64,000 bases of DNA from Eledone cirrhosa (lineage: Eukaryota), in assembly GCA_964016885.1 (NCBI GenBank), contig OZ024740.1:361088001-361152000 (forward strand), written 5' to 3'. A program made the translations under genes and the position numbers. The notes beneath the pieces were generated by a model that worked only from the letters and a program-made list of their open reading frames with translations, was not told the origin of the DNA and ran no database searches. The first letter of the stretch is position 1. Every line of letters starts with the position of its first letter. Of this stretch, positions 1-56,911 are shown piece after piece.

Positions 1-799
1 GCTCAATCTGCTAGGAATTATACTATCAGTCCTAAAAATGACAGATTACATAATGTAGTCCTAGATACAATTTGTCTGGAGAAAAGAGAACAACAAAGCT
101 GGGGTCATAAAGCCTAGAAGGTGTTTGGTTATACGTATGTTTGATCAGAGCTGATCTGGGGTTAATAACAGTACACGACCCACGTGTATTCACGCTCCGG
201 TGAAATGTGTTACAAACTTATTTTTCAATAAATTATGTTTACAAAAATATTCAAGCGATAAATTACCTCTTTTTAACCATTCAACATCGATGCATCTGAA
301 GCCGATTGTATGTGGAAAGAACTAGCACAGATTTTCGCACTTTAGTGAGTTTACTTCGATCACAGTTAATATATTTGTAACAGATGCAAAGCCACCAACG
401 TACACAGATGAGTGTAGATCAATTAAACAGACTCCAATTGTTATCGATAGTTAATATAATTCGTAAAATAAAATAAATTGTCGTGTTGTTATGAGAGATG
501 AGTTCTGATGGATAGAACTGAAGGATGTTTTTCTAGTGAAGCCAACAAGAACTTAAATATCCAAAACGACCGACAGGAAGAAAGCGGTGTAAGATTTTTG
601 GTGTCACCTTTTAAGTTTTTATTTTTATTTTTGCTGGTTTCAATTATTAGAGTGCGGATCATGCTGGGGCATCGATTTGAAGGGATTTAGTGAATCATGG
701 CGACCCCAGAACTTTTGAAGTCTGGTACTTTATCGATCTTATCTTGTTGAACATTATGGGGCATACCGCACCACCACAAACAATATATATATATATATA

Positions 800-1030
800 A
801 TAATAATAATAAATTTGAAGACTAAAATCCAAAGAGGGCTCGATAAGGATAAATATATATCAAATATAACCGTAGAGCAATATATATATTTAACGAGTGA
901 TTAAAATAACACAGTACTTAAAGCAATCAAATATGAACACTCAATACGTATATGTAAAGTGTACGCTACATTTTCTGAGTAGAAAAATAGCAGTGACTTC
1001 GAAATTCTAGCTTGGTGGCTTCATCTGGCT
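800..1030 (-). mobile_element. 3' end of Penelope-type pLTR family H2 (degenerate)
   Basis: 811-880 is the reverse complement of the 3' end at 56088-56160 (ttgctctacggt...gagccctctttggattttagtcttcaa + (TTA)n). Confidence 0.65.
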
Positions 1031-3523: not shown

Positions 3524-3680
3524 GTACAGATTAAAGTTTAAGAAGATCCCATAATGGGGTGAAAGCAGCGGTTCTTTGCTTAAACTTCAATCTGTACTAA
3601 TAATAAATATTTCTGCGGGTTTATATATACAATCCTTATCGAGCCCTCTTCAGATTTTGGTCTTTGTAATTATTATTACT
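3524..3680 (+). mobile_element. Truncated pLTR family H2 copy with short 5' inverted arm and 3' part of the hammerhead
   Basis: agaagatccc-ataat-ggggt-GAAA-gca...tgctt-aaac homologous to 56018-56070; gtacagattaaagtttaag (3524) is an inverted copy of the downstream segment. Confidence 0.65.
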
Positions 3681-4512
3681 ATATATATATATATATGTGT
3701 GTGTGTACACATGTAAAAATAAGACAATGGTTAAAGATCATAAGATGTTATGAATCACTTTCCAAAATATAGTACGAGTTATTAGATAGCATAAATTGAA
3801 AGGTTTTGAAATATTACATATATATGTGTGTGTGTGTGTGTATAAAACGGAGCTCTTTGATATAGAGATCGTAAGACCGACTTAAATGTTTACAAAGAAA
3901 TTTCTAAAAAGATACGTTCTCACAATTAATTCTTCAAATTTCCCGCCATGCTACCGTTTCAATTTTGGCAAGACATTTGGCTACATTTCAAATTTGGCAA
4001 GACATTGGATACATTTAAAAAAATAAAAACATTCATTTAAAAACAAAAATGATAGTTATTTACCTGCAATTCCAGGAGAAGAAAAAAAGATGTTACAAAA
4101 CCACAATTGCCTCTCGTTCTCTATAACTTTATTTAAATTATTGTAAATGTCAGAAAAAGTAACAATAGACGTTAAGCTGTTAGCAGGATATTTTGGGTTA
4201 TCTCCCCTGTATATTACCCACTTCGCTCTCAAAGCACTCGTTCTTTTCGGGGCGAGGGGGGGGGGGTAATGTTAATGGAGGAATTAGGTCTATTCTTTTT
4301 CTCTTTATTTTATTTTGTTGTCCTTGGTTGTCTGACAGTGTGAGAGTACTGTTATATTCTATTTATTTACTGGTTATTGTTTGTGCGTGTCTGCTTTTAA
4401 GTTTAATATTCCTTCTACAATATTATTTAAACTAAAAGCTTATATATATTATATTTAATATATATGAATGGGATTTGGAGATATCTCTTCGTTTATTTGT
4501 TCATTTAATAAA

Positions 4513-17324: not shown

Positions 17325-17359
<35 letters not shown>

Positions 17360-17808
17360 TATATATATATATATATATATATATATTTCCAGTTTTGTAC
17401 TTATTTTCTTCATCTCTTTTTGTTGAACTGCTAAGTTATGGGACATAAACAAAGCATAAACAAAAAAACAGACATGAACACATACAAAAGCACCAAAAAA
17501 TAAATGTAAAATGCTGATGATGATAATGACACACATAGACACACACACATACACACACACACAAACATATATATATATCATCATCATCATTGTTTAACGT
17601 CTAAAACGATGATGATGATGATATATATATATATATATGTGTGTGTGTGTCATTATCATCATCATCATCATCATCATTATCAGCATTTTACATTTATTTT
17701 TTGGTGCTTTTGTATGTGTACATGTCTGTTTTTTCGTTTATGCTTTGTTTATGTCCCATAACTTAGCAGTTCAACAAAAAGAGATGAATAAAATAAGTAC
17801 AAAACTGG

Positions 17809-17880
<72 letters not shown>

Positions 17881-33919: not shown

Positions 33920-34007
33920 ATGAAGGAAATGTGGTAAGGAACCAGATAAACCATAATGCACCAAAGTACTCAATACTTAAGGTAGTAGAGTGGGTAATAG
34001 GAACAAG

Positions 34008-34116
34008 TATGACCCCGACGGCAGAGCTCAAGCCGTTTCGACGGCTAATTCTGGACTAAATGGGAATTTTTAGCCTGATAAATAAATAGCCGAACTTCTC
34101 AGGGGGTAATTCCATA
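34008..34116 (-). ncRNA. Type-I hammerhead-like ribozyme, CUGAGAAG core, GUC site
   Basis: UAUG-gaauu-ACCCC-CUGAGAAG-uu-CGGCUA..UAGCCG-uc-GAAACGGC-uugagcucu-GCCGUC-GGGGU-CAUA. Confidence 0.75.
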
Positions 34117-34592
34117 TATGGGAAGATAGTAATTGTCAAGAGGATTGGTCAAAAATTTGTTGTAAAGACAGTTGATTCTATCATGGCATTTAGTGGAAGG
34201 TAGGGTAGGGGTAGCTGAACTTGCTGGTAGAACAAAGAGAGAGTGGGGGAAGCCCAGTCAAGCTTTGAAAGTGAAATCTATACAGCAGGTTCTAAGGATA
34301 GTGTATAGAAGGTCGAAAAAAGTGTACTGGAGAAGGGGAGGGGAGTGGGGAGTTGAAAAAGTAGGTAAATATATAAAAAAAAACAGATATATAAACAAAC
34401 AGCAATTTCTGGTTACTATTCCATCCCCACCATCCTCAAATCTCTCATTGGTATTGTTAAGCTCTAGAAAAGTTTGTTCTACCAGCAAGTTCAGCTACCC
34501 CTACCCTACCTTCCACTAAATGCCATGATAGAATCAACTGTCTTTACAACAAATTTTTGACCAATCCTCTTGACAATTACTATCTTCCCATA

Positions 34593-34701
34593 TATGGAAT
34601 TACCCCCTGAGAAGTTCGGCTATTTATTTACCGGGCTAAAAATTCTTATTTAGTCCAGAATTAGCCGTCGAAACGGCTTGAGCTCTGCCGTCGGGCTCAT
34701 A
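34593..34701 (+). ncRNA. Second H1 hammerhead (inverted arm)
   Basis: Core at 34607-34614, GAAAC 34670-34674, predicted cleavage after C34692. Confidence 0.75.
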
Positions 34702-34715
34702 CTTGTTCCTATACT

Positions 34716-43064: not shown

Positions 43065-43720
43065 ACACTCAGAAGGCCAATTTAAAGAATGCTTTCTTAA
43101 CCATGAAACAACCTTTAGACACCCAAACAAGCAATTGACCACAAACCTAACAAGCCATGTATGGTCATTGAAGGTGGCGGGCGTGAACTTCTCCATCAAA
43201 TGGAAAATCCTCGAGAAAATTAAGATCATATGCAAATGGATCTAAGGCCTGCAGATTGTGAAGCAATGAAAGATTAAATATTTTTTACAGATGTAACGCA
43301 ACAATACTTGCTTTAACAAAAGAGCCAATTTGTTTCAACTGCTGCTCCCATGTCACAAAATCTTTGTTATATAACTGGTAGGACCCAGGACAACCAGAGG
43401 ATTGACGATATCTCGAGCTAAACTATCACAAAGGATTGTTCTTCAAAGGTTATTTCCCCATAACAGTCTAATTGGAGTTACTCTCCTAATACGGAAATAA
43501 AAACTGACCTCTTCTGCGCAGAATCTATGCAGTTCAAAAATACCTTTGTTCACACTACAAACATACATGAGTTGAAAATCCTTTTTAGATGAAACACGTG
43601 TTCTCAAGTATGGTTTGGTAATTATTGTGCAACTAACTCTATACCCAACTCGTCCTTTGGACTGAGTGCTTTACCAACTTTGAAAATAACCTGATTTTTC
43701 ACTAATATGTAGTAGTGAAA
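43065..43720 (+). mobile_element. Penelope-like element 3' end (GIY-YIG C-terminus + pLTR with minimal hammerhead at 43568-43606)
   Basis: EGQFKECFLNHETTFRH..TNLTSHVWSLK..IKWKILEK, then frameshifted SYANGSKACRL..E and NKR..CCSH; TGAG-TTGAAAA-tcc..agat-GAAAC-ACGT-GTT-CTCA. Confidence 0.85.
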
Positions 43721-54504: not shown

Positions 54505-55406
54505 TATATATATATATAGTATATATATGGTATATATATATATATATGGTATATATATATATGATATATATATATATATATATGATATATATATATATAT
54601 ATATGGTATATATATATATATATGGTATATATATATATATATATATGTTATATATATATATATATGGTATATATATATATATGGTATATATATATATATA
54701 TATATATATGTTATATATATATATATATGGTATATATATATATATGGTATATATATATATATATATATATATGGTATATATATATATATATATGGTATAT
54801 ATATATATATATATATATGGTATATATATATATATATATGGTATATATATATATATATATGGTATATATATATATATATATGGTATATATATATATATAT
54901 ATGGTATATATATATATATATATATATGGTATATATATATATATATATGGTATATATATATATATATATGGTATATATATATATATATATATGGTATATA
55001 TATATATATATATGGTATATATATATATATGGTATATATATATATATGGTATATATATATATATATGGTATATATACATATATATATGGTATATATATAT
55101 ATATATATGGTGTATATATATATATATATGGTATATATATATATATATGGTATATATATATATATATATGGTATATATATATATATATATGGTATATATA
55201 TATATATATGGTATATATATATATATATATGGTATATATATATATATATATATATATATGGTATATATATATATGGTATATATATACATATATATATATA
55301 TGGTATATATATATATATGGTATATATATGGTATATATATATATATGGTATATATATATATATGGTATATATATATATGGTATATATATATATATATATA
55401 TGGTAT

Positions 55407-56170
55407 ATATTTATTAAAATAACAGATTAAAGTTTAAGCAAAGAATCGCTGCTTTCACCCTTAATGGGATCTTCTGAAACTAACAAAGTCAATCTGTAAA
55501 CGCAGAACTGGATATTTCAAAAAACGTTGCAACCGGAGGAAGACAGGAAGACGATACTTTGGTTCGTGGTAACGTTCGCTGGCAAAGAACGGCAAAAAAC
55601 GAATATAATACGTCATTAATAGGAGCGGTGAAAAACAATTACGCGCAAAGACAAAACCACGTTTATGGTATAAAAGAGGTCGTAGACTAATGTTTGGTTT
55701 TGTCTTTGCGTGCTATTGTTCTCCACGCTCCACATATGACTTATTATCTTCGTTTTTTCGTTCATTGCCAGAGAACGTCTCTATGCACCACCTAAGAGAA
55801 CATTAGTCTACGACCTCTTTTATACCATAAACGTGGTTTTGTCTTTGCGCGTAATTGTTTTTCACCGCTCCTATTAATGACGTATTATATTCGTTTTTTG
55901 CTGTTCTTTGCCAGCGAACGTTACCACGAAGCAAAGTATCGTCTTCCTGTCTTCCTCCGGTTGCAACGTTTTTTGAAATATCCAGTTCTGCGTTTACAGA
56001 TTGACTTTGTTAGTTTCAGAAGATCCCGTTAAGGGTGAAAGCAGCGATTCTTTGCTTAAACTTTAATCTGTTATTTTAATAAATATTTGCTCTACGGTTC
56101 TTATATATTTGATATATATTTTCCTTAACGAGCCCTCTTTGGATTTTAGTCTTCAATTTTATTATTATTA
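55407..56170 (+). mobile_element. Non-coding head-to-head Penelope-type pLTR element, family H2
   Basis: 288-bp arms 55407-55694 / 55799-56086 with about three mismatches; (TTA)n end. Confidence 0.8.
55997..56070 (+). ncRNA. Type-I hammerhead-like motif with CAGAAGA core (mirror copy 55423-55496, minus)
   Basis: CAGAUUGA-cuuuguu-AGUUU-CAGAAGA-uCCC-guuaa-GGGu-GAAAGCA-gcgauucuu-UGCU-U-AAACU-UUAAUCUG. Confidence 0.65.
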
Positions 56171-56911
56171 CTATATGGTATATATATATATATGGTATAT
56201 ATATATATATATGGTATATATATATATATATATATGGTATATATATATATATATATATATATATGGTATATATATATATATATGTATGGTATATATATAT
56301 ATATATATATATGGTATATATATATATATATATGGTATATATATATATATCATATATATATATATATCATATAGTCCTATATATATATATATATATCAGA
56401 CAGTCCTATGCGAGCAAGACAACCACTCTTGCCTCAAGTTGGAAAACCCCCGTCCAAACCCATGCAAGCGTGGAACACGGACGCTAAACCTGATGATGAT
56501 GATGATGGTATATATATATATATATATATGGTATATATATATATATATATGGTATATATATATATATATATATATATATGGTATATATATATATATATAT
56601 GGTATATATATATATATATATATGATATATGGTATATATATATATATATATATGATATATGGTATATATATATATATATATATGGTATATATATATATAT
56701 ATATATGGTATATATATATATATATGATATATGATATATATATATATATATGATATATATATATATATGATATATATATATATATGATATATATATATAT
56801 GATATATATATATATATATGATATATATATATATGATATAATATATATATATATGATATATATATGATATATATATATGATATATATATATATATGATAT
56901 ATGTATATTTG

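What the first reader, a model, noticed from the sequence alone, without database searches (positions are those of the whole stretch)
55407..56170. Second young hairpin family (H2) with a U4->A hammerhead core (CAGAAGA, CUU site)
Seen: 288-bp arms with about three mismatches, so a young insertion. Both arms carry a full type-I fold with a bulged stem I, but the normally conserved U4 is A. The diverged copy at 3524-3680 also reads AGAAGA-TCCC..GGGT-GAAAGCA, although its first AG overlaps the inversion junction. The spacer (55695-55776) is a diverged tandem copy of arm sequence. No ORF. Inference: an independent non-autonomous PLE family with a different core variant.
Basis: partly seen in the sequence, partly recalled or inferred. 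Interest (0 to 1): 0.75.

Follow-up and report, generated by a model that had tools for sequence, protein, structure and literature searches.

The report
Autonomous Penelope element with A4 hammerhead
This hairpin is the cut-short end of a very abundant, protein-coding jumping gene, inserted head-to-head with an inverted copy of itself; its hammerhead-shaped RNA has A instead of the usual U at one core position in about 99% of some 21,000 copies, so it likely cuts itself slowly at best, and cutting has not been tested.

Summary
In detail: 288-bp arms with 3 mismatches, a type I hammerhead layout with core CAGAAGA and a CUU site. The 'non-autonomous family' reading is wrong. The hairpin is the 5'-truncated, inverted 3' end of an autonomous Penelope-like element (3,264-bp unit; intact 709-aa ORF with telomerase-like RT and Hydra-clade motifs). 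The 'spacer' is element sequence. A4 is fixed: 21,268 exact motif copies with A, 88 with U, 131 with C or G, and older subfamilies also have A. Across older copies, 0 of 55 core and stem sites carry lineage-shared changes, against 20 of 145 flank and 5 of 21 loop sites, so the fold is under constraint. There is no compensatory covariation, and the core alone is not significant. All published Hydra hammerheads have U4. I found no natural U4A in print (7 searches; three key papers were not held). Cleavage is untested: there is no RNA run and no genomic footprint at the cut site. This scan already reported the same family on other DNA of this genome (e1-10330111, e1-10319020, e1-9854161). Verdict: a new core variant in a known kind of element, likely a slowed ribozyme.

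The parts
55407..55694 (-). Inverted, 5'-truncated copy of the element's 3' end (288 nt), ending at 3' end site A (equivalent to 56086)
55695..56172 (+). Forward, 5'-truncated copy of the element's 3' UTR (478 nt), ending at 3' end site B
   Evidence: 97.6% identical to the UTR of ORF-intact copy L034; end site B
55695..55798 (+). 'Spacer': element sequence, part of the first unit of an old duplication (about 139-nt period, about 79% identity) in the parent's 3' UTR
   Evidence: the duplication shows in 29 of 29 other loci
55996..56071 (+). Type I hammerhead fold. Stem I: 55996-56004/56063-56071 and 56012-16/56058-62, with bulge 56005-11. Stem II: 56025-27/56033-35, closed by a U.U mismatch (56024/56036). 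Stem III: 56040-43/56053-56
   Evidence: sequence; conservation ends at the stem I ends
56017..56023 (+). Core CAGAAGA; 56018 is position 4 (A instead of U)
56055..56057 (+). CUU triplet; predicted scissile bond after 56057 (cutting untested)
   Evidence: hammerhead numbering applied
55422..55497 (-). Same hammerhead fold in the inverted arm (one G>A change in loop II)
56087..56172 (+). 86-nt 'tail' between the family's two 3' end sites; the ORF start lies 42 nt further on in tandem copies
54800..55406 (.). (TA)n-TGG minisatellite, the insertion target (it continues after 56172); no target-site duplication can be resolved
3524..3684 (+). Older copy (about 77-78% identity) with an inverted stub joined at stem I; C3 lost at the junction
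790..905 (-). Tail-only fragment of the same family (87%), without the hammerhead core

Best explanation
The hairpin is a 5'-truncated, head-to-head insertion of the 3' end of an autonomous Hydra-type Penelope-like retroelement whose hammerhead fold has A fixed at core position 4, and that fold is likely a slowed, probably protein-assisted ribozyme that selection still keeps. SHOWN: the parent has a 3,264-bp unit, a 709-aa ORF and a 1,091-nt 3' UTR. Its two 3' end sites lie 29 and 115 nt downstream of the predicted cut. A4 is fixed in young and old subfamilies, and stems plus core lack lineage-shared changes. INFERRED: the endonuclease cuts (TA)n on both strands; each strand primes reverse transcription at one of two internal RNA sites; both cDNAs stopped early and were joined, giving the inverted repeat plus an 86-nt tail. 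Because the copies span the scissile bond, their templates were uncut (or re-ligated) at the 3' hammerhead, so a slow core costs little. PREDICTED: A4 lowers the cleavage rate and adds an off-state pairing between 56014-18 and 56036-40.
For: Intact ORF P0001. It has RWR, DKT, CxCx5C, CxxC and CxH motifs, as defined for the Hydra clade, and the top fold hits are telomerase RTs. 150 of 150 scored endonuclease-region matches are 97-100% identical. Position 4: 21,268 A, 88 U, 131 C/G; 35 of 35 older copies that cover it have A. Lineage-shared changes: 0 of 55 core and stem sites versus 20 of 145 flank sites (p=0.0024) and 5 of 21 loop sites (p=0.0011). 3' ends: 77 at 56085-86 and 117 at 56168-72, of 211. 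53 of 60 head-to-head pairs use one end of each kind. Two RT start sites bounding the tail, a protein-assisted hammerhead and uncut RNA as main substrate were shown for another PLE (PMC11167929). A viroid U4C variant is slower in vitro yet works in vivo (as cited in PMC3088659).
Against: No cleavage data. No pair shows a lineage-shared double-sided change; one copy has a single C-G to U-A swap. The core alone (0 of 11) is not significantly conserved (p=0.36), so protein binding could explain the constraint without catalysis. All single mutants in the CUGA region had low activity in a type III hammerhead (PMC9901934). Stem II is 3 bp with a U.U closure, and the active fold is 2.8 kcal/mol above the MFE. 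5' truncations do not pile up at the cut site (2 of 54 within 56054-60). Older copies were picked by similarity to queries that include the motif, and related copies are not independent events, so the p-values are generous.
Confidence: 0.55

Rival explanations
1. The ribozyme is catalytically dead. The three-way fold is kept only as a binding or positioning element for the ORF protein next to the two RT start sites.
For: Stems are significantly conserved but the core alone is not. Hammerhead mutants did not impair insertion by the anole PLE in vitro. Naiads amplify without canonical hammerheads. CUGA single mutants had low activity. No footprint at the cut site.
Against: All 11 core positions stay unchanged while loops drift (0 of 11 versus 5 of 21; suggestive only). 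The G12/G8 catalytic pair, the A15.1-U16.1 pair and an NUH triplet are intact. The anole PLE's protein-binding site was mapped to the ORF start, not to the hammerhead core.
Confidence: 0.3
2. A4 is tolerated in this extended hammerhead (long bulged stem I giving a tertiary contact with loop II), and the ribozyme cuts at near-normal rates.
For: Unlike the published Hydra motifs, which have short palindromic stems III, this one has a monomer-type stem III and a 14-bp bulged stem I. Tertiary contacts are proposed to offset core variants (PMC3088659 discussion).
Against: Low activity of CUGA mutants even in a tertiary-stabilised ribozyme. A4 raises an off-state pairing from 0.00 to 0.39 probability relative to natural U4 copies. 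Fast cutting would remove both RT start sites from the 3' end.
Confidence: 0.12
3. One reading: an independent non-autonomous hairpin family without a coding partner.
For: No ORF in the window copy. One internally deleted 1,368-bp tandem unit exists at L003.
Against: Arm and spacer are colinear with the 3' UTR of ORF-bearing copies. 5' ends are scattered rather than fixed.
Confidence: 0.02

Closest known systems
Hydra clade of C-terminal EN+ Penelope-like elements (Craig et al. 2021, PMC8557442; passages, section 11, supplement parts 1, 2 and 52 read)
   Same: Single ORF with RW[K/R], DKT, CxCx5C linker, CxxC and CxH; (TA)n targets; inverted 5'-truncated copies; hammerhead near the 3' end, often closed by U.U at stem II.
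   Different: All 26 Hydra rows of File S2 (25 families) have a CUGA core and a GUH site with a short palindromic stem III. This family has CAGA, CUU and a 9-nt loop III. It is longer (3,264 bp versus 'generally <3 kb') and its tail is 86 nt (30-40 in that paper). By eye it is not Hydra-1_Obim: protein and motif differ.
[quoted passage not shown]
   Same: Type I hammerhead in the terminal repeat; opposite-strand pairs 100-700 bp apart; a family-wide core variant (U3-A8) is known.
   Different: U3-A8 is a compensated pair swap. U4A is an uncompensated change at an unpaired position. The motif here has a full stem III.
Natural core-variant hammerheads (Perreault et al. 2011, PMC3088659; passages and section 8 read, supplements searched, Figure 5 not visible)
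   Same: U4C (viroid), A6C and a U10.1-U11.1 mismatch occur naturally with low or partial activity.
   Different: Those are rare single cases. U4A is not named in the text I saw. Here it is fixed in about 21,000 copies of an expanding element.
PAc/Poseidon element of Anolis (Frangieh et al. 2024, PMC11167929; parts 1-2 of 4 read)
   Same: Two internal RT start sites bounding a tail, downstream of the hammerhead; AT-rich targets.
   Different: PAc has a canonical core, and its RT start sites lie inside the ORF. Here both ends lie in the UTR, upstream of the ATG.

Membership tests
Penelope-like element, EN+ | Telomerase-like RT in a single ORF | tested here: met
   709-aa ORF; YRDD at 346; top five fold hits are TERT structures, E 2e-8 to 1e-7, model pLDDT 70. 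Pfam and PDB sequence searches were blank.
Penelope-like element, EN+ | C-terminal GIY-YIG endonuclease | tested here: inconclusive
   YIG motif at 598 with downstream R, E and N by eye and aligned Hydra context. One of 120 listed homologues carries PF01541. No profile hit on P0001 itself.
Penelope-like element, EN+ | Partial tandems (pLTR), inverted 5'-truncated copies, one-sided tail | tested here: met
   L031 tandem; 53 of 60 pairs with the tail on one side
Hydra clade | DKG changed to DKT; RWK motif | tested here: met
   DKT at 115, no DKG; RWR (K>R variant) at 37
Hydra clade | CxCx5C linker; CxxC and CxH in the endonuclease | tested here: met
   positions 564, 662 and 690
Hydra clade | Insertion into (TA)n | tested here: met
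   window; flanks of most fetched loci
Hydra clade | [quoted passage not shown] | not tested
   No tree was built with the published sequences, which were only read
Hydra clade | Canonical hammerhead (reported as universal in the clade; an associated trait, the clade being defined on the protein) | tested here: not met
   U4 is A in 99% of copies
Canonical type I hammerhead ribozyme | Core C3 U4 G5 A6 N7 G8 A9 / G12 A13 A14 / A15.1-U16.1, H17 | tested here: not met
   All present except U4; no Rfam hit. Filed as a variant fold, not as a canonical member.
Canonical type I hammerhead ribozyme | Three stems around the core | tested here: met
   Pairs kept in 89-100% of older copies per pair; no shared compensatory change; stem II only 3 bp with U.U closure
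Canonical type I hammerhead ribozyme | Site-specific self-cleavage | not testable with these tools
   needs a bench assay
Non-LTR retrozyme or other non-autonomous element | Non-coding unit with its own fixed ends or tandem monomers | tested here: not met
   colinear with the UTR of coding copies; scattered 5' ends

The most novel reading that the evidence does not exclude
A4 is not decay but a selected attenuator. It lets the 5' core strand pair with the U-GAAA strand in an off-state, so the RNA stays uncut while it serves as template and cuts only when the element's own protein refolds it. This would be a natural, protein-switched hammerhead with a core not reported before, and it may have helped this family's expansion.
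Probability: 0.18. Interest if true: 0.72.

Novelty: new variant of a known kind. Interest (0 to 1): 0.44.

Why it matters
What hammerheads do for Penelope-like elements is open. This family has many intact ORFs and about 21,000 motif copies with an uncompensated core change. It also has 88 natural U4 copies, and the genome holds other families with canonical cores. Together these give a ready-made comparison of whether cutting speed matters for transposition. Standard CUGA descriptors and Rfam miss the motif, so such variants are likely undercounted. The hairpin itself is an ordinary PLE insertion.

Tried and rejected
Rfam scan: no hammerhead hit. Pfam and PDB sequence searches for the ORF: blank. 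RNA evidence: no RNA holder listed; this says nothing about expression. The four laid runs are contigs of unknown kind; they list no variant at 56018 at the 5% level, nor does X1 at 2%. They cannot show RNA ends. A canonical U4 subfamily: rejected; the 30 of 88 U4 loci I fetched sit on mixed subfamily backgrounds or at inversion junctions. The apparent CTGAAGA in L073 and L095-097 comes from the inverted arm. A second A4 family: the pattern (13,717 matches, control 4,637) is dominated by the last codons of an RTE-like LINE ORF, with no stem I seen by eye, so it was rejected. That pattern requires GAAAC and a GUH site, so the second family mentioned in e1-9854161 is neither confirmed nor excluded. 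Cut-site footprint: 2 of 54 incidental 5' truncations lie at 56054-60. In the chromosome C1 part, junctions at the TA microhomology beside the cut (about 15 loci, my count) are about as common as at another AT microhomology 9 nt upstream (about 10). This is inconclusive to negative. A close sister family that would date the change: not found. The nearest database protein is 56% identical and has no context. Of 7 metagenome loci (37-43%), 4 showed one canonical CUGA motif downstream of the ORF. Not held: Nelson and Uhlenbeck 2008, Lunse et al. 2017, Ambros and Flores 1998. Ruffner 1990 and Przybilski and Hammann 2007 were not looked up. Measured U4A rates or a natural U4A case may be in these.

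Full report
1. Observation. The inverted repeat is real: arms 55407-55694 and 55799-56086, 288 nt, 3 mismatches. Both arms hold a type I hammerhead layout with core CAGAAGA (56017-23). Stem II is 3 bp closed by U.U. Stem III has 4 bp and a 9-nt loop, followed by a CUU site. Stem I has 5 plus 9 bp around a 7-nt bulge. The spacer is 104 nt, and the forward copy continues to about 56172, into the same (TA)n-TGG minisatellite that lies on the left. The fold is not the predicted minimum-energy structure (-12.8 versus -15.6 kcal/mol) and Rfam does not see it.

2. What it belongs to. A genome search with the forward arm gave 801 candidates; the 40 scored each gave a near-full-length match at 95-100%. 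Upstream they continue into a long UTR and an ORF. One of 8 extended loci (L034) has an unbroken 709-aa ORF, and the window's forward arm is 97.6% identical to its UTR. With the last 200 aa as query, 150 of 150 scored matches were 97-100% identical and 11 had open frames of 709 aa or more. The unit is 3,264 bp, the 3' UTR 1,091 nt, and the ATG lies 42 nt after the tail. The protein has RWR, DKT, YRDD, CxCx5C, YIG, CxxC and CxH, the Hydra-clade signature in Craig et al. 2021 (section 11). Its model matches telomerase RTs best (pLDDT 70, pTM 0.45). Pfam and PDB sequence searches were blank. No tree was built. The 'spacer' is part of an old duplication inside the UTR, seen in all 29 other loci. 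So this is a truncated copy of an autonomous element, not a non-autonomous family.

3. The core. Exact-pattern counts give 21,268 motif copies with A at position 4, 88 with U, and 131 with C or G. These are motifs, not insertions; reversed-pattern controls were 0. A looser pattern gives 30,978. U is at the level of background decay: by my count about two thirds of the 100 listed C/G copies are G. The 30 U loci fetched do not form a subfamily. In loci chosen by the endonuclease rather than by the motif, 37 of 37 hits have A4 (three of these loci repeat earlier ones). Among 51 older copies (mean 84% identity; 8 duplicate loci dropped), 35 of the 35 covering the position have A. By contrast, all 26 Hydra rows in the published table have CUGA and a GUH site. 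This genome holds several other families with canonical CUGA cores (157,937 overlapping matches versus 970 control).

4. Is the fold constrained? In the 51 older copies I scored sites where a change is shared by at least 4 copies and 12%, or where the majority differs from the window. Substitutions only were counted; CpG transitions and two indel-rich AT blocks were left out. Results: core and stems 0 of 55, flanks 20 of 145 (p=0.0024), bulge and loops 5 of 21 (p=0.0011). In the 28 copies found with an independent older query the figures were 0 of 55 and 18 of 145 (p=0.004). Variation resumes immediately outside stem I, at 55994-95 and 56072-76. Against this: the core alone is 0 of 11 (p=0.36), no pair shows a shared compensatory change, copies were selected by similarity to queries containing the motif, and related copies are not independent. 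The fold is kept. Whether for catalysis or for binding is not resolved.

5. How the hairpin formed. Of 211 distinct 3' ends, 77 fall at 56085-86 and 117 at 56168-72 (the second class was favoured by my queries, the first was not). Of 60 head-to-head pairs, 53 have one end of each kind and 7 have two long ends. The window copy is of the first kind. Frangieh et al. showed for another PLE that RT starts at two internal sites bounding the tail, on both target strands, that uncut RNA is the main substrate, and that the hammerhead cuts only with protein. I infer the same here: two primings, early stops, and joining. Both ends lie downstream of the predicted cut (29 and 115 nt), so every copy that spans it was made from RNA not cut there, or re-ligated. 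Incidental 5' truncations cluster at the 5' side of stem I (10 of 54 within 56003-16) and not at the cut (2 of 54). The first may reflect structure in the template, but short hits are under-detected and I chose the interval after seeing the data.

6. Activity. Untested. Single mutants of the CUGA region had low activity in a type III hammerhead (PMC9901934, passages). A viroid U4C variant is slower yet works in vivo, and U.U at the base of stem II is the best-tolerated mismatch (PMC3088659). Folding predicts that A4 adds an off-state helix between 56014-18 and 56036-40: probability 0.39, against 0.00 in three natural U4 copies, which misfold in another way. I put slowed but retained cleavage at 0.55, dead but structural at 0.30, and near-normal at 0.12.

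7. Literature and novelty. Seven searches and supplement searches showed no natural U4A hammerhead. Limits: Figure 5 of Perreault et al. was not visible; file 1 of the Cervera supplement could not be searched; gapped alignments defeat string searches; three key papers were not held. Also seen: bioRxiv 10.64898/2026.07.22.740005 (part 1 of 5; its supplements were not seen), and passages of PMC6155905, PMC6765202, PMC11014351 and PMC13282606; none bore on U4A. Hammerhead position numbering is from my own knowledge and matches. Earlier notes of this scan report the same family in this genome. They are not independent support; I reached the Hydra assignment, counts and selection test before reading them. 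The host species was not determined.

8. Verdict. An ordinary PLE insertion geometry carrying an unusual, family-wide, apparently unreported core variant. New variant of a known kind; interest 0.44.

Noticed in passing
window 33997-34712: Another hairpin (240-nt arms, 98%) of a different repeat, with a short palindrome holding a GAAAC motif near the outer ends. My scans found no linear hammerhead there. Earlier scan notes describe rearranged hammerheads in Naiad-like repeats of this genome; I did not test whether this is one.
   Followed up: no
window 17328-17869: Long inverted repeat (202-nt arms as reported, 96%) made largely of microsatellite and unique-looking DNA, with no hammerhead motif found; looks like a local inverted duplication.
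   Followed up: no
L003:716-3263: Tandem of an internally deleted derivative (1,368-bp period: ORF start joined to ORF end plus UTR) carrying two A4 hammerheads; a possible non-autonomous offshoot.
   Followed up: partly
L034:4066-4110: A 19-nt piece holding the core and part of stem II is repeated three times at the inversion junction just before an intact ORF.
   Followed up: no
L166-L195: At least four other repeat families with canonical CUGA cores and the U.U-closed stem II. One (L178, L191, L105) shares the G15.2-C16.2 pair and CUU site with this family but has U4 and a palindromic stem III: a candidate comparator.
   Followed up: partly
L196-L225: An abundant RTE-like LINE whose last codons read CAGAAGA...GAAAC...GTC, a chance hammerhead look-alike; a warning for pattern searches.
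   Followed up: yes
L073, L095-L097, L103, L108, L111: Inversion junctions in or beside the core can create a canonical-looking CTGAAGA, which could mislead descriptor searches.
   Followed up: partly
L085/L139:1670-2763, L194:2031-3035, L152, L154: Fragments of more distant ORFs related to P0001 (30-48% identity), so further families of this kind exist in the genome.
   Followed up: no
window 43069-43212: Weak match to the element's endonuclease region (31%, E 2e-4), probably an old PLE remnant.
   Followed up: no
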